Shown piece by piece: positions 6,690-13,111 of a stretch of 64,000 bases of DNA. The notes beneath the pieces are model-generated. The model had not been told where the DNA came from. It worked only from the letters and a program-made list of their open reading frames with translations, and searched no databases. Every line of letters begins with the position of its first letter. Within the stretch, counting starts at the first letter, position 1. The translations under genes and the position numbers were made by a program. This DNA is from Alphaproteobacteria bacterium (lineage in GTDB: Bacteria; Pseudomonadota; Alphaproteobacteria; CALKHQ01): assembly GCA_965227515.1 (NCBI GenBank), contig CBDDFZ010000001.1, positions 800,001-864,000 of the forward strand, read 5' to 3'.

Positions 6690-7640
6690 ATGAGTGCCGA
6701 ACCGATCGCTGCAACCGCCATGGACAGTGACGAAGCACGGCAGCACCTGAACGCGCACGGCTATGTGGTGCTGGAGAACGCGATCGACCGTGCCGCGGCG
6801 CGCGAGCTGAAGGCGCTGGTCGACCGCCGCATGGCGATTGAGCGCGCGCAGCCGTTCGATCCGGGCGACGGCCCGTCCCACCCTGACGATGCTTTCTTCG
6901 CCGAGGAGGTCGGCCCTTTCACCGCCGGCAAGGCCGAGCGCGCGCGCGTCGTGCAGCGCATCCGGGCCGATCGCGCCCGCGAGTTCGACACGCCCTGGCC
7001 GGTGGAGCCGGAGCACGTCTGCATCAGCTTCTTCCACATCCCGACATTGTTCGACGACGGCCGCTCGCAGCGGGTGTTCAACCTGATCAACAAGGAGCCG
7101 GCGTTCGCGCCGCTGATCGAGCACCCGGCGGTCATGAACATCATTGACGCTGAACTGGGCCGCGACGCGGTGCTGCTGGACGTCAGCATCAACAATGTCG
7201 GCGCCCACACCGAGAGCGGCGGTTGGCACGTGGACTCCCCGCTCAGCATGGCGCCCGAGCCGCTGCCCGACTTCACCCTGTCGATCCAGACGGTATGGAT
7301 GCTGGACGACTTCACGGCCGAGAACGGCGCCACCCTGGTGGCGCGCGACAGCAATCTGACCCGCCGCCAGCCACCGCCGAACGCGGCGGACGTGGCCAAC
7401 CCGGTGGTGCTGGAGGGCCCGGCGGGCTCGGTCGCGATCTGGCTGTCGCAGACCTGGCACCAGCACGGCGGCAACAGGACCGACACCCCGCGCACCGGCG
7501 CCATCGTCCAGTACGGCCGGGCGTGGATCAAGCCGTTCGTCGACCTGCGCACGCCGATGACGGCGGACCAGGCGGCGCAGTTCTCGCCGCGCCTGCGCTA
7601 CATGATGGGCTGCAACGCCAACGCCCCGGTGCGGGGATAA
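6690..7640 (+). CDS. Phytanoyl-CoA dioxygenase (PhyH) family Fe/2OG enzyme
   Basis: HGYVVLENAI, WHVD, FTAENGAT and WHQHGGN (HxD...H). Confidence 0.88.
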   Translation: MSAEPIAATAMDSDEARQHLNAHGYVVLENAIDRAAARELKALVDRRMAIERAQPFDPGDGPSHPDDAFFAEEVGPFTAGKAERARVVQRIRADRAREFDTPWPVEPEHVCISFFHIPTLFDDGRSQRVFNLINKEPAFAPLIEHPAVMNIIDAELGRDAVLLDVSINNVGAHTESGGWHVDSPLSMAPEPLPDFTLSIQTVWMLDDFTAENGATLVARDSNLTRRQPPPNAADVANPVVLEGPAGSVAIWLSQTWHQHGGNRTDTPRTGAIVQYGRAWIKPFVDLRTPMTADQAAQFSPRLRYMMGCNANAPVRG

Positions 7641-7690
7641 GCTCGAAGTTTTTTTGCGTCATGCCCGCACTTGTCGAGCCTACGTTCAGT

Positions 7691-7774
7691 CGTAGCCCGG
7701 GTGGAACGTAGTGAAACCCGGGGACATACCTTCACCTCTCTGTGCCCCGGATTGCGCTGCGCTCCATCCGGGCT
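7691..7774. repeat. GTAG-family REP doublet (REPIN); right REP interrupted by IS110
   Basis: CGTAGCCCGGGTGG...AACCCGGG and CCCGGATTGCGCTGCGCTCCATCCGGGCT. The terminal ACG is displaced to 9195-9197. Confidence 0.85.
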
Positions 7775-7799
7775 TCTGTAACGGGCCATTGTTGGTCAA

Positions 7800-8038
7800 T
7801 CCCTTTTTCGTCGTCCCGGCGCCTGGGTCATGCTTCTGTACGGGGTCGGCGCAGGGCCGCCGCCAAGATGGATATGCGAGGATCGGTCGGTCCAATCTAC
7901 GGAAGCGTGCTCTCATGCGAGGCGACATCCCGGATGGCGGCCTGACCTGATCCATCGTCCCGGCGCGGGACGGCGCTCGACGGGCCGGTGTCGGTGCCCG
8001 TCGAAGCTCGTGTGTCGGTTCTCCTTATGCCGCGGCCA
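7800..8038 (-). ncRNA. Putative bridge RNA / seekRNA of the IS1111-type element
   Basis: The 3' non-coding region contains, in sense orientation, CCATCCGGG and CCGTAG (target halves) and CCATCTT and TACAGAAG (donor junction halves). Boundaries are approximate. Confidence 0.78.
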
Positions 8039-9082
8039 TCATGCTGTCGCCATCGCCGGGCGCACCGGTCCGGCATGGTTGAACGGTGTGCCGTCAACCC
8101 ACATCCGGTGCATGATCACGGCGAGCCGGCGCGCCAGCGCGACCTTCGCCTTCCTCATGCCCGCACGCCTGGCCAGCTTCATCGCCCAGCTCTTCAGCCA
8201 GCCGCCCTCGATCGGCCGGGTCAGAACCACGTGTGCCGCCTCATAGAGGGCCGAGCGCACATCGGCGTCCCCTACCTTCGATATCCGCCCCATCACCTCG
8301 CTCTCGCCCGACTGGCGCTTGGTCGGCGTCAGGCCGAAGTGCGCACCCACCAGGCGCGACGAGGCAAACCGCCCGGGGTCGTCCACTCCCGACAAGTAGG
8401 TCAGTCCGACAATGCTCCCCACGCCCGGCACCGTCATCAGCAGGCGAGCGCGATCGTCGGCCTGCGCCGCCGCCCGGACCTGCCGGTCCAGCGCCGTGAA
8501 CGATAGCAACAGGCCATCGCGTGCCGACAGCAGCGCCCCCGCCACCGCCTCCAGTACCGGATGCCCCGCCACAAGCTCCGAAATACGTGTCGAAAAGCTG
8601 CGCCTGGTGGTGTGCCCTACCTTCAGCCCGAAGTTCCGCAGCTGACCACGAAGGTGCATCTCAAGATCGTGCAGCTTCGCGCGGAGCTGGTCGCGACCCT
8701 TCAAAAGGGCCCGCATCTCCTGGGCCGCCAAAGACTTGCAGTGAACCGGACGAAACCAGCCCACACGCATCAGCTGAGCAATCCCGCGTGCGTCCGAGCG
8801 GTCCGACTTCACCGGCATCGTCGAAAGGGCCCGCGCAACATGACGCGTCTCCAGCAACTCAACCGAAAGACCGCCCTGCGCGCACTCCCGCACAAGCCAT
8901 TGCGACAACGGCCCCGCCTCAAGACCAATCCGCTCAACCGAAATCCCCAAAGACCCAAACCACAACAACAAACCCGCCGGCGTGCTCGCAATACGAGCCT
9001 CGCAGACAATCCCGCCCGCGCCGTCAACAACGCATACCGATGACCATTCCAAAGAAACGTCAATCCCGGCATAGTAGTTCAT
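8039..9082 (-). CDS. IS110 family transposase/recombinase
   Basis: DEDD RuvC-like motifs YAGIDVS, GLEAG and KSDRSDARGIA. C-terminal TVPGVG, RQSGE and ISKVGD. Confidence 0.96.
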   Translation of the reverse strand: MNYYAGIDVSLEWSSVCVVDGAGGIVCEARIASTPAGLLLWFGSLGISVERIGLEAGPLSQWLVRECAQGGLSVELLETRHVARALSTMPVKSDRSDARGIAQLMRVGWFRPVHCKSLAAQEMRALLKGRDQLRAKLHDLEMHLRGQLRNFGLKVGHTTRRSFSTRISELVAGHPVLEAVAGALLSARDGLLLSFTALDRQVRAAAQADDRARLLMTVPGVGSIVGLTYLSGVDDPGRFASSRLVGAHFGLTPTKRQSGESEVMGRISKVGDADVRSALYEAAHVVLTRPIEGGWLKSWAMKLARRAGMRKAKVALARRLAVIMHRMWVDGTPFNHAGPVRPAMATA

Positions 9083-9244
9083 GGTCGTCTCTCCTCGATG
9101 TCTTGGAGCGGCAAACCCGACTCCGTGTATGACACCGACATCTTGAGGGACGACCACTCATGCACGCCACCAAACAAGGGCCGTTAGCCCATCTACGGGT
9201 TTTCTTGCCAATGGCATCTTGAGGTCGCGGCTGATTGCGCCGCG

Positions 9245-9309
9245 CCCCTCACCTTCCCAGCCTATGGCTGGGCCCCTTCCTCTCCCGCACCGCTTCGCGG
9301 CGGGGAGAG
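9245..9309. repeat. CCCTCACC/CTCTCCC...GGGAGAG hairpin repeat
   Basis: Same style as 31909-32086 and 59902-59930. Confidence 0.6.
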
Positions 9310-9346
9310 ATGATTTGGACGCGCTTCGCGATGACGATGTAGGCAC

Positions 9347-12300
9347 CTACCGCTGGTCGAGCTTGATCTCGATGCGGCGGTTCTGGCGCAGGGACTCGTC
9401 GTCCTCGCCCTCGCTGAGCGGCTGATATTCGCCGAAGCCGGCGGCGACCAGCCGGTTGGGCGGAATGCCGCGCGAGATCAGGTATTCCACCACCGAGATC
9501 GCGCGCGCCGACGACAGCTCCCAGTTCGACGGGAACTCGCGGGTGTTGATCGGCACCACGTCGGTGTGGCCGTCGACCCGCAGCACCCACTGGATGTCGT
9601 CGGGAATGGTATCGGCGATGCCGAGCAGTGTATCGGCGATCTGGTCCAGTTGCGCCCGGCCTTCCGGGCCGATTCGCGCGTCGCCCGAGGCGAACAGCAC
9701 CTCCGACTGCAGCACGAAGCGATCGCCGACGATGCGGATGTCCTCGCGGTTGCCGATGGCCTCGCGCAGGCGGCCGAAGAACTCGGACCGGTAGCTCGCC
9801 AGCTCCTCCACCCGGTCGATCAGCGCGGTGTTGAGCCGGTTCGACAGGTTGACGATTTCCACGTCCTGCTCGGCGATATGAAGTTCGGCCCGGTCCAGTG
9901 CACCGGTCAACCGTTCCAGTTCGGCGCGCAGCGCCATCAGTTCCTCGTTAAGGGCGCTGATCCGCTCCGCCGCCTCCTCATAGCGGGTTTCGGCCACCAC
10001 CAGGTCGGCTTCCAGGCTGCGGTTCTCGTCCCGCGTGGCCGTCAGGTCGCGATAGAGCTGGCCGGTGTCGGCGCTGGCGTCGGCCAGATCGCTGGCCATG
10101 GCGGCAAGGTCGGCGGCGAGCCGCGCGCGTTCTTCCTCGCTCAGAGCAAGCGCGTCCTCGGCTTCCTGCAGCCCCGCCGACAGCTCGGTGATCTGGGTGC
10201 GCAAGGCATCGCGCAGCGCCGTCAGTTCGCCGATTTCGACCAGCCGCGCCTCAAGCGTGGCGTCGCGGGCCGACAGGTCGGCTTCCTGGGAGGCAATCTC
10301 GTCCTGCAGCTCCTCGGTGCGGGCCAGCAGCAGCGCGATCTCCGAATCCCGCTCCTCCATGTCGGCGAGCAACTGGTCGCGCAGGGCCAGCAAGGCGGCG
10401 ATCTCCGACTCCCGGCCGGCGAGGTCGCTGTTGAGTTGCGTGCGCAGGGCGACCAGGGCCGCCAGCTCGCCACGCACCGCGGCCAGCTCGCGCTCCCGCG
10501 CGGCCACGGCCTCGTTCAGTTCGGCGACATAGGCTTCAAGGTCCAGTACCTCGGCCTCGGCAGCACTCAGGTCTTGGCGCAGTTCGTCACGCTCGCCAAC
10601 TGCCGCCGCCAGCGCGGCGTCGCGCTCGGCCAGCGTCTGGGCCAGTTGCTCCTGCTCGCGGGTCAGTGCGTCCAGCGCCGCCTCGCGCTCGGCAAGCGCC
10701 TGGGCCAGCAGCTCGCGCTGTGCCTGGGCCTGGGCGGCCAGGGCAGTCTGCTCGTCGATGGAGTCGGCGAGCGCGGTCTCGGACTGCTCCAGTTCGCTGA
10801 TGGAGGCTTCCGCCAAGGCGGCCCGCGCCAACGCGGCATCGCGCTCGGCCAGCGCCGTTGCCAGGTCGTCGCGCACCTGGGCCAGTTCGGCCAACTCGGC
10901 GACCTGTGCCGCCATGTCGTCCTCGAGTGCGGCGCGCGCCAGTTCCAGTTCGGCGATCGCGGCATCGCGTGCGTCCAGGGTCTGGCTCAAGAGGTCGTAC
11001 TGGTCGGCGGCCAGCGCCAGCGCCGCGTCGCGTTCCGCCAGCGCATCGGCCAGCGCCTCGCGCGCGGCCTCCAGCGATGCCAGGTCGCCCTCTGTCTCCG
11101 CCAAGGTGCCGGCAAGCTCATCGCGCTCGGCGGTCAACGACGACAAGGCGGCATCGCGCTCCGCGACGGCGGCCGCCAGTTCGGCGCTGCGCTGCTGGGC
11201 CAGCGCCAGGGCGGCGTTACGCTGCGCCAGCGTCTCCGCCAGCGCATCGCGGGACTGCGCGGCCTGGGCCAGTGCTGCCTCGGTTTCCGCCAGTGCCGCG
11301 GTCTGGGTGTCCAGGCGCTCGGTCAACGCATCGGCCTGGCCGGAGGCGGCGTCCATCTCGGCTTCCAGGCCGCTGATCGTTTCGGTCTGGTTCGCCATCG
11401 CGGTCTCGAGCGCCTCGGCCATCGCCCCGACCTCGTCCAGCGCCTCGTCGCGCGCCGCCAGGTCGGCGGCCAGGGTATCGGTGCGCGCTTCCAGTTCGGC
11501 GATCAGCGCGTCGCGCTCGGCCAGCACCTCGGCCAGTGCCGCGCTCCGTTGCTCGGCCGCCGCCAGCGCCGCGTCGCGCTCGGCCAGCAGCGCTTCCAGT
11601 TCGGTCTCGCGGGTGGCGAACGCGAGGATCTCGTCCTCGCGTTGCTCCAGCTCGGCGTTCAGCGCGTCGCGCAGCGCCATCAGCGCCACCACCTCCTTGC
11701 GCAGGTCGCCGATGACGCGACGGTCGCCGGCCAGCGACTGCTCCAGGTCGGTGGCCTCGGCCAGCAGACCCTCGATCTGCAACCCCTGTTCGTCGAGCGA
11801 GGCCTGCAGCCGGTCGCGCAGCGCGGTGAGGGTGACGATTTCCTCGCGCAGCTGATCGCGCTCGGCCTCGGTCTCCGCCAGCGAGCCGGTCAGGGTTTCG
11901 GCCTGGGCGGTCAGCGCCGCGATCTCCTCGTCGCGCCCCGCAAGTTCGGATTCCAGCTCGTCGCGGATGGCGTAGAGGACCGCGATCTCCTCGCGCATGT
12001 CGGCGACAGTCTCGTCGCGCGCGGCCAGGTCGGCGGCGGTCTCGTCGACCTGCAGCTCCAGTGCGAGAATGCGCTCCTGCTGCTCGCGGCTGAGCGCGGA
12101 AAGCTGCTCGTTCGAGGCCTGGGCATCGGCAAGCTGGCCCTCGAGCGCGCTGAGCTCCTGGCGCAACTGGTCGCGCAGGGCGGACAGCGCGGCGGTTTCC
12201 TGGCGCACATCGGCAAGCTGGTTGGTGCGCTCCAGAAGCTGGGTGTTGAGCTGCTCCGAGAGTTGGTTGAGATCGGCGATGGAGCCGTCGCGCGCGGCCA

Positions 12301-13111
12301 CCTGCGCACGCAGGTCGTCGCGCAGTACGATGAGCGCCGCCACCTCGGTGACCGCATCCTCCAGGTCGGCGGCGAGCGCATCGCGTTCCGCTTCCGCGGT
12401 GGCCAGGCTCTCGGACAAGTCGTTGCGGTTGGCGTTGGCGTCGGCGAGTGCTGCCTGCAGGGCCGCGATATTGGCTTCGCGGCCCCCCAACTCGGCCTCC
12501 AGACCGGCGGCGCGCTCTTCCTGTGCTTCCAGCAACGCCGCCAGTTCCACCACCCGGTTCTCGAGCTGGCCGCGCACGTCGGTCAGGGTCGCGATGTCCT
12601 GCTCAAGTGCGGCGAGGTCCAGGGCCTGCTGGCTGATGGTCGCATCGCTCTCCGCGATCGTCTGCTCGGCCTCGGCAAGCTGTTGCTCGGCGGAGTCGGC
12701 GCGCGCGGTCGCCGCCGCCAGCCGGCCTTGCAGGCCGACCCGGTCGGTCTCCGCGGCTTCCAGGGCAGCCGTCAGCTCATCGCGGGTGGCGGTCAGGTCG
12801 CTGACCTGGGCGCTCAGTTGGTCGCGCGCGTCGTTGGCATCGGCCAGGTCGGCGGTCAGGGAGTCGACATTCAGGCGCAGGTCGGCATTGGACTGGCGTT
12901 CCAGCACCAGCATGCTGTTGAGCTCGTCGACCAGCTCGTTGAGTTCGCTCAGCCGCTCGTCGCGCCCGATCAGCGCGTCGTTCAGGAAGAACTGGGAGAT
13001 GGTGAAGATCAGCAGCAGGAAGATGATGACCATCAACAGCGTGGCCAGGGCATCCACGAAGCCCGGCCAGATGTTGGGGCTCGACCGCCGTGTCCGTGTC
13101 AGGCCTGGCAT
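9347..13111 (-). CDS. MotB/OmpA-family peptidoglycan-binding protein with a giant coiled coil
   Basis: N-terminal WPGFVDALATLL TM (MotB-type Asp), about 1,050 aa of A/L/E-rich heptads, and a C-terminal OmpA domain (VLFASG, VDGHTD, NWELSSARA, NRRIEI). Confidence 0.88.
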   Translation of the reverse strand: MPGLTRTRRSSPNIWPGFVDALATLLMVIIFLLLIFTISQFFLNDALIGRDERLSELNELVDELNSMLVLERQSNADLRLNVDSLTADLADANDARDQLSAQVSDLTATRDELTAALEAAETDRVGLQGRLAAATARADSAEQQLAEAEQTIAESDATISQQALDLAALEQDIATLTDVRGQLENRVVELAALLEAQEERAAGLEAELGGREANIAALQAALADANANRNDLSESLATAEAERDALAADLEDAVTEVAALIVLRDDLRAQVAARDGSIADLNQLSEQLNTQLLERTNQLADVRQETAALSALRDQLRQELSALEGQLADAQASNEQLSALSREQQERILALELQVDETAADLAARDETVADMREEIAVLYAIRDELESELAGRDEEIAALTAQAETLTGSLAETEAERDQLREEIVTLTALRDRLQASLDEQGLQIEGLLAEATDLEQSLAGDRRVIGDLRKEVVALMALRDALNAELEQREDEILAFATRETELEALLAERDAALAAAEQRSAALAEVLAERDALIAELEARTDTLAADLAARDEALDEVGAMAEALETAMANQTETISGLEAEMDAASGQADALTERLDTQTAALAETEAALAQAAQSRDALAETLAQRNAALALAQQRSAELAAAVAERDAALSSLTAERDELAGTLAETEGDLASLEAAREALADALAERDAALALAADQYDLLSQTLDARDAAIAELELARAALEDDMAAQVAELAELAQVRDDLATALAERDAALARAALAEASISELEQSETALADSIDEQTALAAQAQAQRELLAQALAEREAALDALTREQEQLAQTLAERDAALAAAVGERDELRQDLSAAEAEVLDLEAYVAELNEAVAARERELAAVRGELAALVALRTQLNSDLAGRESEIAALLALRDQLLADMEERDSEIALLLARTEELQDEIASQEADLSARDATLEARLVEIGELTALRDALRTQITELSAGLQEAEDALALSEEERARLAADLAAMASDLADASADTGQLYRDLTATRDENRSLEADLVVAETRYEEAAERISALNEELMALRAELERLTGALDRAELHIAEQDVEIVNLSNRLNTALIDRVEELASYRSEFFGRLREAIGNREDIRIVGDRFVLQSEVLFASGDARIGPEGRAQLDQIADTLLGIADTIPDDIQWVLRVDGHTDVVPINTREFPSNWELSSARAISVVEYLISRGIPPNRLVAAGFGEYQPLSEGEDDESLRQNRRIEIKLDQR

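What the first reader, a model, noticed from the sequence alone, without database searches (positions are those of the whole stretch)
7800..8038. Readable bridge/seekRNA guides in the IS1111-type element that match both the REP target and the IS junction
Seen: reading the 3' non-coding region in transposase sense gives four segments in order. CCATCCGGG (7937-7929) matches target flank 7764-7772. CCGTAG (7902-7897) matches the other target flank plus core, 9198-9193. CCATCTT (7871-7865) is complementary to the predicted circle junction AAGATGG. TACAGAAG (7840-7833) matches the IS end plus core, 7780-7773. Each pair addresses opposite strands. Established: IS110-family recombinases use a non-coding RNA with separate target- and donor-binding loops, and in IS1111-type elements it lies downstream of the transposase. 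Inference: a complete, potentially reprogrammable recombinase-RNA pair aimed at this genome's GTAG REPs.
Basis: partly seen in the sequence, partly recalled or inferred. Interest (0 to 1): 0.78.

Follow-up and report, generated by a model that had tools for sequence, protein, structure and literature searches.

The report
IS1111-type insertion sequence with bridge RNA
This is an ordinary but very clear example of a jumping gene whose own small RNA reads both its insertion site (a repeated palindrome of this genome) and its own ends; the class has been known since 2024.

Summary
All four short matches are in the sequence at the stated coordinates.

- **What the element is.** It is an IS110-family, IS1111-type insertion sequence on the minus strand, spanning 9194-7773. 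The genome holds 21 copies. All are inserted between GTAG and CCNGGNTGG of a REP, and 114 such sites remain empty.
- **RNA structure.** The 3' non-coding region folds into a scaffold conserved in relatives whose transposases are 43-68% identical. 88% of pair cells form pairs, against 48% or less in slid controls, and 23 of 38 pairs show compensatory changes.
- **Where the segments sit.** In the window's copy all four segments fall in unpaired stretches. Two flank one hairpin inside a long stem (the target loop). Two flank a second hairpin closed by only three base pairs (the donor loop).
- **Guide-target covariation.** Guides track their targets across 14 distinct elements (0 of 20000 permutations), in three named plasmid elements, and between two guide variants within this genome (Fisher p = 0.0005).
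- **Not shown.** Transcription of the RNA, its binding to the transposase, and reprogramming were not tested.

Verdict: a new member of the known bridge RNA/seekRNA kind, well supported and of modest interest.

The parts
7773..9194 (-). Whole insertion sequence, with the AG core copy at each end (9194-9193 and 7774-7773). The body is 9192-7775. The left non-coding end is 107 nt and the right one 264 nt.
   Evidence: Sharp ends shared by the 21 genome copies. Uninterrupted GTAG|CCNGG sites exist elsewhere in the genome.
9195..9198 (-). Left target flank CCGT, the end of the REP arm ..CGTAG
   Evidence: C precedes GTAG in 16 of 21 copies.
7764..7772 (-). Right target flank CCCGGATGG, the REP arm
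8039..9085 (-). Transposase gene, 348 aa, DEDD/IS110 family
   Evidence: Pfam PF01548 and PF02371. NCBIfam NF033542, 239 bits against a cut-off of 140. C-terminal match to IS621 and ISCro4 chains.
9081..9157 (-). 5' UTR stem-loop that pairs the GAGGAG ribosome-binding site
   Evidence: MFE -39.9 kcal/mol, z = -5.29, 0 of 200 shuffles fold as well.
9178..9186 (-). Left subterminal inverted repeat TAACGGCCC
   Evidence: It is 8 of 9 complementary to the right repeat. Homologues have 10 of 10.
7779..7787 (-). Right subterminal inverted repeat GGCCCGTTA
7973..8007 (-). Hairpin H0 upstream of the modelled RNA
   Evidence: MFE fold. A hairpin stands at the same place in both homologue groups.
7825..7976 (-). 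Bridge/seekRNA scaffold as matched by covariance model R1
   Evidence: 110.4 bits. Structure counts.
7957..7971 (-). Hairpin H1 (GUCCC..GGGAC)
7938..7953 (-). 5' strand of outer stem S2, which encloses the target-binding loop
   Evidence: It pairs with 7880-7894.
7880..7894 (-). 3' strand of outer stem S2
7929..7937 (-). [quoted passage not shown]
   Evidence: Unpaired in the consensus. Covaries with flanks.
7907..7926 (-). Inner hairpin H3 of the target-binding loop
7897..7902 (-). Left target guide CCGUAG (same sequence as the left flank plus core), followed by an invariant AUUG
   Evidence: Unpaired. Covaries with left flanks.
7877..7879 (-). 5' strand of the short helix closing the donor-binding loop; pairs with 7828-7830
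   Evidence: Compensatory U-A/G-C changes in homologues. U-A, C-G and G.U in this copy.
7865..7871 (-). Right donor guide CCAUCUU (pairs with AAGATGG of the circle junction, or AGATGG of the integrated left junction)
   Evidence: Unpaired. Same position as the conserved CCCAU of homologues, with a GG-to-CC change on both sides in L070.
7842..7863 (-). Hairpin H4 between the two donor guides
   Evidence: 96% of cells paired, 5 of 7 pairs with compensatory changes.
7833..7840 (-). Left donor guide UACAGAAG (same sequence as the right IS end plus core)
   Evidence: Unpaired. Three covarying states in homologues: ACAGAAG, AGAGAAG, AGCGAAG.
7828..7830 (-). 3' strand of the donor-loop closing helix

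Best explanation
Window 9194-7773 (minus strand) is an intact IS1111-type member of the IS110 family. Its 264-nt right end encodes a bridge RNA, also called a seekRNA.

Reading the RNA 5' to 3':
- Two small hairpins (H0, H1) come first.
- A long bulged stem (S2) then encloses an internal loop.
- The 5' side of that loop carries a 9-nt guide complementary to the top strand of the REP arm CCCGGATGG.
- The 3' side carries CCGUAG, identical to the left flank plus the AG core.
- A hairpin (H3) caps the loop.
- Directly after S2 comes a second module: CCAUCUU, hairpin H4, then UACAGAAG, closed by a 3-bp helix.
- CCAUCUU is complementary to the core plus the IS left end. UACAGAAG is identical to the IS right end plus core.

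The inferred mechanism follows IS621 and ISEc11. The transposase binds this RNA. One loop pairs with both strands of a GTAG|CCNGGNTGG REP. The other pairs with the joined ends of the excised circle. Strand exchange at the shared AG core then inserts the element without a longer duplication. In the integrated state the same four guides fit the two IS-flank junctions, so they could also serve excision.

Shown here: the element and its boundaries, the target, the conserved structure, and the guide-target and guide-end covariation. Inferred: transcription and processing of the RNA, its binding to the protein, and the chemistry.
For: **Family.** Pfam DEDD_Tnp_IS110 and Transposase_20 both match. 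NCBIfam 'IS110 family RNA-guided transposase' scores 239 bits against a cut-off of 140. The GLTPTKRQSG motif aligns to the IS621 serine region, and Asp/Glu/Asp/Asp align in the N-terminal segment (the N-terminal segment scored low).

**Activity.** All 20 full-length copies have open frames of 370-372 aa. 13 copies have an identical RNA region.

**Target.**
- All 21 copies lie between (C/A/T)GTAG and CC(C/T)GG(A/G)TG.
- 114 uninterrupted sites exist in the genome.

**Structure.**
- Two homologue groups folded separately give the same architecture.
- On 10 sequences, 94.8% of cells pair, against 35-53% in slid controls.
- On the model-fitted alignment of 24 distinct sequences, 88.0% pair against 48% or less. 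23 of 38 pairs have changes on both sides, and 0 of 500 shuffles reach any of the five measures.
- The model also found elements outside its seed: L064, L065, L075, L079 and three named plasmid elements.
- The pairs include many G.U pairs, such as 20 of 24 at one S2 pair. These would be A.C on the other strand, which fixes the RNA sense.

**Guides.**
- All four segments are unpaired in the window's row.
- Right target guide: cognate complementary runs average 7.6 nt against 3.8 for 182 non-cognate pairs. They reach 7 or more in 10 of 14 elements. 0 of 20000 permutations match this.
- The three named plasmid elements give runs of 9, 7 and 9 nt.
- Left target guide: 4.45 against 2.55, 2 of 20000 permutations.
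- Within the genome, 7 of 7 copies with guide CCAUCCAGG sit at CCT.. flanks. 11 of 13 copies with CCAUCCGGG sit at CCC.. flanks (p = 0.00046).
- 9 of 13 of the latter sit at the perfectly matching CCCGGATG, which makes up only 18 of 114 empty sites (p = 0.0001).

**Order of guides.** It matches the published IS1111 rule.
Against: - No RNA evidence exists. No RNA run holds the sequence, no sigma-70-like promoter lies inside the element, and no Rfam family matches.
- The unconstrained single-sequence fold pairs the guides with other parts of the RNA and is not better than shuffles (z = -1.58).
- The donor loop is closed by only 3 bp. Those pairs form in 70-80% of cells.
- The right donor guide has little variation to test. 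One informative change (L070) and a nearly invariant ATGGG are all there is.
- In this copy the right target guide pairs with only one of the two core bases.
- 4 of 14 elements do not match their resident right flank well. These are L054, L060, L077 and, by exact match only, the variant-B copy, which needs a G.U pair.
- Left-guide matches are short in several elements.
- The A4 alignment was fitted to the tested structure, which favours it.
- For ISEc11 a short 82-nt seekRNA containing only the target matches was sufficient for movement. The donor half may therefore not be required.
Confidence: 0.85

Rival explanations
1. Only the target-binding half is a functional guide RNA, a short seekRNA. 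On this view the two 'donor' matches are not RNA guides. They would be conserved for another reason, for example DNA sites for the transposase near the right end, or they would be dispensable.
For: For ISEc11 the 82-nt seekRNA with only the two target matches moved a mini-IS better than the 154-nt form (PMC11187229 section 10). Here the donor loop has only a weak 3-bp closure. The right-donor match is not above chance on its own: 1284 of 3000 shuffles reach it.
Against: Hairpin H4 between the two donor segments is the best-supported helix, with 96% of cells paired and 5 of 7 pairs compensatory. That points to RNA rather than a DNA site. The left donor guide tracks the IS end through three states, and L070 changes GG to CC in both guide and end. 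Durrant et al. predict donor-binding nucleotides in IS1111 bridge RNAs.
Confidence: 0.12
2. The matches are DNA-level leftovers with no RNA role. They would be fragments of REP and of IS ends captured or duplicated inside the non-coding region, or protein-binding repeats.
For: A guide necessarily looks like a copy of its target. There is also a 12-nt direct repeat GCGCCGGGACGA inside the right end, and no RNA data exist.
Against: Relatives with unrelated targets carry different sequences at exactly the same scaffold positions, matching their own flanks. The helices around them keep pairing through compensatory and G.U changes in one strand sense only.
Confidence: 0.02
3. Chance: short GC-rich matches in a GC-rich genome.
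For: Two of the four matches are common in shuffles, at 805 and 1284 of 3000.
Against: All four together occur in 0 of 3000 shuffles. The permutation tests across homologues give 0 and 2 of 20000. The within-genome variant-to-flank association has p = 0.0005.
Confidence: 0.01

Closest known systems
IS1111-family seekRNA elements ISEc11, ISPa11, ISKpn4 and ISPst6 (Siddiquee et al. 2024, PMC11187229; sections 6, 9, 10 and 13 read)
   Same: - DEDD transposase of about 340 aa with a GL-P----SG motif.
- Subterminal inverted repeats.
- Long non-coding region downstream of the gene.
- Two short target matches to opposite strands, with the top-strand match 5' of the bottom-strand match.
- A site-specific target.
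   Different: This element's target is a GTAG-type REP of an alphaproteobacterium-like genome. The paper's short seekRNA description does not include donor guides, whereas here a conserved donor module follows directly.
IS621 bridge RNA (Durrant et al. 2024, PMC11208160, passages read; Hiraizumi et al. 2026, PMC13626964, abstract read; PDB 8wt6)
   Same: - Four guides (left/right target, left/right donor) addressing opposite strands.
- A shared core dinucleotide in target and donor.
- A REP target of about 14 bp.
- A two-module RNA.
- The recombinase C-terminal domain matches at E = 2.5e-11.
   Different: | Feature | IS621 | This element |
|---|---|---|
| RNA position | Left end, upstream of the gene | Right end, downstream of the gene |
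| Guide order | Left guide first | Right guide first (reversed) |
| Core | CT | AG |
| Guide lengths | 9-nt left guide, 4-nt right guide | About 5-nt left guide, 9-nt right guide |
| Inverted repeats | 2-3 bp | 9-10 bp subterminal |

In this element the donor loop is only weakly closed. Overall protein similarity is low.
Predicted bridge RNAs of the IS1111 group (Durrant et al. name six elements in all, among them ISCARN28, ISAzs32 and ISPa11; which three belong to this group is recalled, not in the passages read)
   Same: The bridge RNA is predicted in the right end. The text says donor-binding nucleotides often sit in a multi-loop rather than a simple internal loop, which fits the weak closure seen here.
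   Different: The figures and supplementary tables could not be seen. Whether this element or a near relative is already among their predictions is unknown.
ISPpu9 and ISPpu10 of Pseudomonas putida (PMC12288879; abstract and section 13 read)
   Same: IS110-family elements inserted in REP sequences in several copies per genome. ISPpu9 has a small RNA gene downstream of the transposase.
   Different: [quoted passage not shown] Here the RNA model finds only the 21 IS-linked copies and no orphan.

Membership tests
IS110 family, IS1111 group | N-terminal DEDD (RuvC-like) domain and C-terminal PF02371 domain with a GL-P----S/TG motif | tested here: met
   PF01548 at 1.6e-12 and PF02371 at 2.3e-20. 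NF033542 at 239 bits against a cut-off of 140. GLTPTKRQSG appears in the translation and aligns to IS621.
IS110 family, IS1111 group | Subterminal inverted repeats of 7-17 bp (as stated in PMC11208160) | tested here: met
   TAACGGCCC at 9186-9178 against GGCCCGTTA at 7787-7779, 8 of 9 complementary and set 4-6 nt in from the core. Relatives have 10 of 10, and the repeat changes on both ends together: TAACGGGCC in one group and TAATCGGCC in the other.
IS110 family, IS1111 group | Longer non-coding region downstream of the transposase gene | tested here: met
   The left end is 107 nt and the right end 264 nt.
IS110 family, IS1111 group | Sequence-specific target with no duplication beyond a short shared core | tested here: met
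   All 21 of 21 copies lie between GTAG and CC(C/T)GG. 114 uninterrupted sites exist. Only AG is shared between the flank and the IS end.
IS110 family, IS1111 group | Circular intermediate with joined ends | not testable with these tools
   No read data were laid. The junction sequence is predicted only.
Bridge RNA / seekRNA | Structured non-coding RNA encoded in an IS end, with the structure supported by covariation | tested here: met
   On A4, 88% of cells pair against 48% or less in slid controls, and 23 of 38 pairs are compensatory. A4 was fitted to the model, which favours it. A2 was not, and gives 94.8% against 35-53%.
Bridge RNA / seekRNA | Internal loop with two guides that pair with opposite strands of the target and change with the target | tested here: met
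   0 of 20000; 2 of 20000; 3 of 3 named elements; within-genome variants, p = 0.0005. The segments are unpaired between S2 and H3.
Bridge RNA / seekRNA | Second loop with two guides matching the IS ends (donor) | tested here: met
   The left donor guide shows three covarying states. The right donor guide shows one informative compensatory change (L070) plus a conserved position. H4 is strongly supported, but the closing helix is only 3 bp.
Bridge RNA / seekRNA | Core dinucleotide included in all four guide pairings | tested here: inconclusive
   AG is included in the left target, left donor and right donor guides. The right target guide of this copy continues ..GGGAU, which pairs with the A but not the G of the core. 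In group-2 relatives it pairs with the whole core.
Bridge RNA / seekRNA | The RNA is made and binds the recombinase | not testable with these tools
   No RNA run is listed. No biochemical data exist.
Rfam families | Match to a curated covariance model | tested here: not met
   0 matches at E up to 1 over 7500-9500. Release 15 gave no match to this RNA.

The most novel reading that the evidence does not exclude
Two guide variants of one insertion sequence live side by side in this genome and divide its REP population between them. A single G-to-A change in the right target guide goes with a C-to-T change in the occupied sites. A G.U pair at another guide position is tolerated.

This would be natural retargeting caught in progress. 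It would also be a ready-made data set of 20 insertions against 114 empty sites for the mismatch rules of an IS1111-type bridge recombinase.

Relatives whose guides do not fit their resident flank (L054, L060, L077) would then reflect mobilisation by a sibling's RNA or guide drift after insertion.
Probability: 0.55. Interest if true: 0.45.

Novelty: new member of a known kind. Interest (0 to 1): 0.33.

Why it matters
This adds a well-documented natural example to a class of RNA-guided recombinases that is being developed for genome editing. It is an intact, recently active IS1111-type element from a GC-rich genome. Its full guide set can be read from the sequence, and its target is about 14 bp.

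The genome supplies 20 independent insertions, 114 unused sites and two guide variants. Together these show which mismatches the system accepts in nature.

For annotation, it explains a 21-copy repeat and its fixed position in REP elements. It does not change what is known about how such elements work.

Tried and rejected
- **Single-sequence folding.** Folding 8038-7773 gave z = -1.58 and paired the guides with other parts of the RNA. It was rejected as a test of the loops. The comparative structure was used instead.
- **Rfam.** No match.
- **Whole-genome search in the window's family and order.** Only 4 genomes were held, and none of the 3 other genomes had a match. Homologues came from the search for related loci instead.
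- **First combined alignment.** A1 with RNAalifold recovered only parts of the structure, because H1 and H3 were misaligned. It also proposed a long-range GGG/CCC pairing. I rejected that pairing in favour of H1 and H4, which show compensatory changes.
- **5' segment pairing with the right-end tail.** I considered that the segment 5' of H1 pairs with the tail to close a multiloop. I rejected this because that segment forms hairpin H0 in both homologue groups.
- **Second pair of inverted repeats.** GTCGTCCC/GGGACGAC, about 45 nt from each end, looked like one. The left copy is part of the 5' UTR hairpin, and the motif is not conserved in group 2. No claim is made.
- **RNA expression.** No RNA holder was listed.
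- **Promoter scan.** Nothing was found inside the element.
  - Two paper searches timed out. Later ones worked.
  - Two scripts stopped on my own coding errors.
  - Two scripts got no answer from the machine and were rerun in parts.
- **Material not seen.** I therefore cannot say whether this element already has a name or a published bridge-RNA prediction.

Full report
**What is in the sequence.**

The minus strand of window 9085-8039 encodes a 348-aa protein.
- It has the Pfam domains DEDD_Tnp_IS110 and Transposase_20.
- It passes the NCBIfam equivalog model 'IS110 family RNA-guided transposase', at 239 bits against a cut-off of 140.
- Its C-terminal domain, with the motif GLTPTKRQSG, matches the solved IS621 and ISCro4 recombinases at E about 2.5e-11.
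- In the weaker N-terminal alignment, the Asp, Glu, Asp and Asp of IS621 face identical residues.

**Boundaries and target.**

The window's genome has two contigs and 5.5 Mb. It holds 21 copies: 20 full length at 88-100% DNA identity, and one with an internal deletion.

Aligned at their ends, all 21 read as follows in transposase sense:
- variable flank
- (C/A/T)GTAG
- ATGGGCTAACGGCCC ... GGCCCGTTACAGAAG
- CC(C/T)GG(A/G)TG..

The right flank is a REP arm whose palindromic partner ..CCACCCGGGCTAC follows some 40-70 nt further on.

The uninterrupted form GTAGCC[CT]GG[AG]TG occurs 114 times elsewhere in the genome. The element is therefore inserted between GTAG and CCNGG. Only the dinucleotide AG is common to the left flank and the right IS end, so AG is taken as the core.

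Other features:
- The element runs from 9194/9192 to 7773.
- The left non-coding end is 107 nt and the right one 264 nt.
- Subterminal inverted repeats TAACGGCCC and GGCCCGTTA lie a few bases in from the ends.

These are the features the two 2024 papers use to define the IS1111 group.

**Roles of the four segments.**

The definitions come from Durrant et al.. A left guide has the sequence of the top strand and so pairs with the bottom strand. A right guide is complementary to the top strand.

| Segment | Window coordinates | Role | Pairs with or matches |
|---|---|---|---|
| CCAUCCGGG | 7937-7929 | Right target guide | CCCGGATGG |
| CCGUAG | 7902-7897 | Left target guide | CCGT plus AG |
| CCAUCUU | 7871-7865 | Right donor guide | A, core AG, and ATGG of the left end |
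| UACAGAAG | 7840-7833 | Left donor guide | Right IS end plus core |

The top-strand match lies 5' of the bottom-strand match. Siddiquee et al. report that order for IS1111 elements, and it is the reverse of the IS110 type (abstract; section 9).

Taken alone, only two of the four matches are rare in shuffles. All four together were reached in 0 of 3000 shuffles.

**Relatives.**

A scan of one genome per prokaryote species returned 29 loci with transposases 43-68% identical. Most come from alphaproteobacterial metagenome bins.

How the loci were used:
- 17 loci plus three of the window genome's own variants entered alignment A1.
- L057, L072, L078 and L080 are cut or partial.
- L063 has no similar downstream region.
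- L056, L066 and L069 duplicate others.
- L064, L065, L075 and L079 were picked up later by the model.

The downstream regions share a scaffold with invariant blocks, among them GGGACGAUGG, AGAUUG, GCCGA and AGAAG.

**Structure.**

The relatives fall into two groups. Group 1 has 7 sequences, including the window. Group 2 has 10. Folded separately, both give the same architecture:
- hairpin H0
- hairpin H1
- a long stem S2 enclosing an internal loop capped by hairpin H3
- then hairpin H4

My dot-bracket on the plain MAFFT alignment of group 2 paired 94.8% of 440 cells, against 35-53% when partners were slid by 1-3 columns. It included a 3-bp helix that closes the second loop and switches between U-A and G-C.

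I built covariance model R1 from 18 sequences.
- It matched 27 places in the window and loci. These included four elements outside the seed, and later three elements on named plasmids.
- In the window's genome it matched exactly the 21 IS copies, so there are no orphan RNA genes.

On the resulting alignment of 24 distinct rows:
- 88.0% of 848 cells pair, against 48.3% or less when slid.
- 23 of 38 pairs show changes on both sides, in 93 cells.
- None of 500 shuffles reached any of the five measures.

That alignment was fitted to the structure, which favours it. The unfitted count and the two independent group folds are the safeguard.

In the window's row all four guide segments fall in unpaired columns. 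When the four segments are simply forbidden to pair, RNAfold on the window's sequence alone recovers H1, S2 with its bulges, and H3 as in the comparative model. The unconstrained fold does not.

**Guide-target covariation.**

*Right target guide.* I compared 14 elements with distinct guides and a known right flank.
- Rows dropped: oursC, L061, L062 and L067, whose guides repeat or nearly repeat others. L052 and L068 were also dropped, because no right end could be found.
- The longest exact complementary run between each guide window and its own flank was 9, 5, 9, 4, 8, 8, 9, 10, 11, 4, 9, 10, 7 and 3 nt, mean 7.6.
- The mean for 182 non-cognate pairs was 3.8.
- No permutation in 20000 reached the cognate sum.
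- The poor fits are L054, L060 and L077. The variant-B copy scores 5 by exact match but pairs over 9 positions with one G.U.

*Left target guide.* This lies just 5' of the invariant AGAUUG. For 11 elements with a known left flank, the cognate anchored identity was 4.45 nt against 2.55, with 2 of 20000 permutations reaching it. Several matches are only 2-4 nt.

*Named plasmid elements.* Acidiphilium multivorum pACMV1, Methylocystis iwaonis and Sinorhizobium terangae carry the RNA at 90, 96 and 78 bits. Their guides match their own right flanks over 9, 7 and 9 nt.

*Donor guides.*
- The left donor guide and the right IS end change together through three states: ACAGAAG, AGAGAAG and AGCGAAG.
- In L070 the left end reads ATGCC instead of ATGGG, and the right donor guide changes correspondingly.
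- The IS ends vary little, so this is thinner evidence than for the target loop.

**Covariation inside one genome.**

The 20 full-length copies come in two RNA variants that differ at four positions. One of those positions lies in the right target guide.
- The 13 'A' copies (CCAUCCGGG) sit at CCC.. flanks in 11 cases.
- The 7 'B' copies (CCAUCCAGG) sit at CCT.. flanks in all 7 cases (Fisher p = 0.00046).
- 9 of 13 A copies occupy the perfectly matching CCCGGATG class. That class makes up only 18 of the 114 empty sites (p = 0.0001).
- 6 of 7 B copies sit at CCTGGGTG, which needs one G.U pair.

These are insertions at different loci, so they are largely independent events. REP-mediated rearrangement cannot be excluded for two copies that share a long identical right flank.

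**Mechanism.**

The best reading is the published one. The recombinase holds the RNA. The target loop pairs with both strands of a REP end. The donor module pairs with the joined IS ends. Exchange happens at the AG core.

The same guides also fit the integrated junctions: left target guide plus right donor guide on CCGT-AG-ATGG, and left donor guide plus right target guide on TACAGA-AG-CCCGGATGG. This is how the IS621 excision complex is described as binding 'across both loops' (abstract of PMC13626964).

None of the biochemistry was or could be tested here. No RNA data set holds the sequence.

**Comparison with known systems, and novelty.**

The element meets every tested defining feature of the IS1111 group and of bridge/seekRNAs. 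Two exceptions apply: full core pairing by the right target guide was not met, and expression and protein binding were untestable.

It differs from IS621 in the ways already described for IS1111 elements: RNA in the right end, reversed guide order, and long subterminal repeats. It also has a long right guide with a short left guide, and a donor module with minimal closure. The last point fits Durrant et al.'s remark that IS1111 donor-binding nucleotides often sit in a multi-loop.

Durrant et al. predict bridge RNAs in 93% of IS1111 elements, so a specialist would not be surprised. Whether this very element is already catalogued could not be checked, because figures, supplements and ISfinder were not available.

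I rate it a new member of a known kind. The interest is modest and comes mainly from the clean within-genome evidence on guide specificity.

Noticed in passing
window 9081-9157 (minus strand): The transposase 5' UTR folds into a strong stem-loop (-39.9 kcal/mol, z = -5.29) that pairs the GAGGAG ribosome-binding site and reaches the start codon. Relatives have a stem at the same place built from different sequences. This is probably translational repression of read-through transcripts.
   Followed up: partly
window 7794-7799 plus 7773-7776 and 9191-9192 (minus strand): An outward-facing TTGACC lies 17 nt before the IS end. After circle formation GAAG|AT would stand at the -10 position. A TTGAC at the same distance from the end is present in most relatives whose right end was identified, in both groups. 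This may be a junction promoter, as described for other IS110 elements.
   Followed up: no
window 9204-9300: The left flank of this copy is another repeat family of about 97 bp, found at 10 or more other places in the genome at 82-94% identity. Its nature was not examined.
   Followed up: no
genome C1:998352-999180 (locus L021): One IS copy has an internal deletion running from about transposase residue 240 to the 3' strand of stem S2, at a shared TGGACCG. It keeps the donor module but has lost the target loop.
   Followed up: yes
L068:2767-2839: A Hyphomicrobium relative carries a second, partial copy of the target-loop module (model positions 28-100, 22 bits) about 40 nt after its full RNA, with different guide letters. 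It may be a duplicated or alternative target loop.
   Followed up: no
L054, L060, L077: In these relatives the right target guide does not fit the resident right flank (runs of 4, 4 and 3 nt). L060's left guide fits perfectly (8 nt), and L054's flank fits the guide of the Methylocystis plasmid element L082. This suggests mobilisation by a sibling RNA or guide drift after insertion.
   Followed up: partly
window 7955-7966 and 7811-7822 (minus strand): A 12-nt direct repeat GCGCCGGGACGA occurs once in hairpin H1 and once in the tail between the left donor guide and the IS end. It is unexplained.
   Followed up: no
window 9347-13111 (minus strand): A 1254-aa ORF next to the IS appears, by eye, to be made almost entirely of Ala/Glu/Leu-rich coiled-coil-like repeats, with a globular C-terminal end. 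It was not analysed.
   Followed up: no
plasmid collection: 218 plasmid records hold relatives of the whole element at 60-90% DNA identity, mostly from Sinorhizobium, Bradyrhizobium and Rhizobium. This IS and RNA subfamily is therefore widespread in Alphaproteobacteria.
   Followed up: partly
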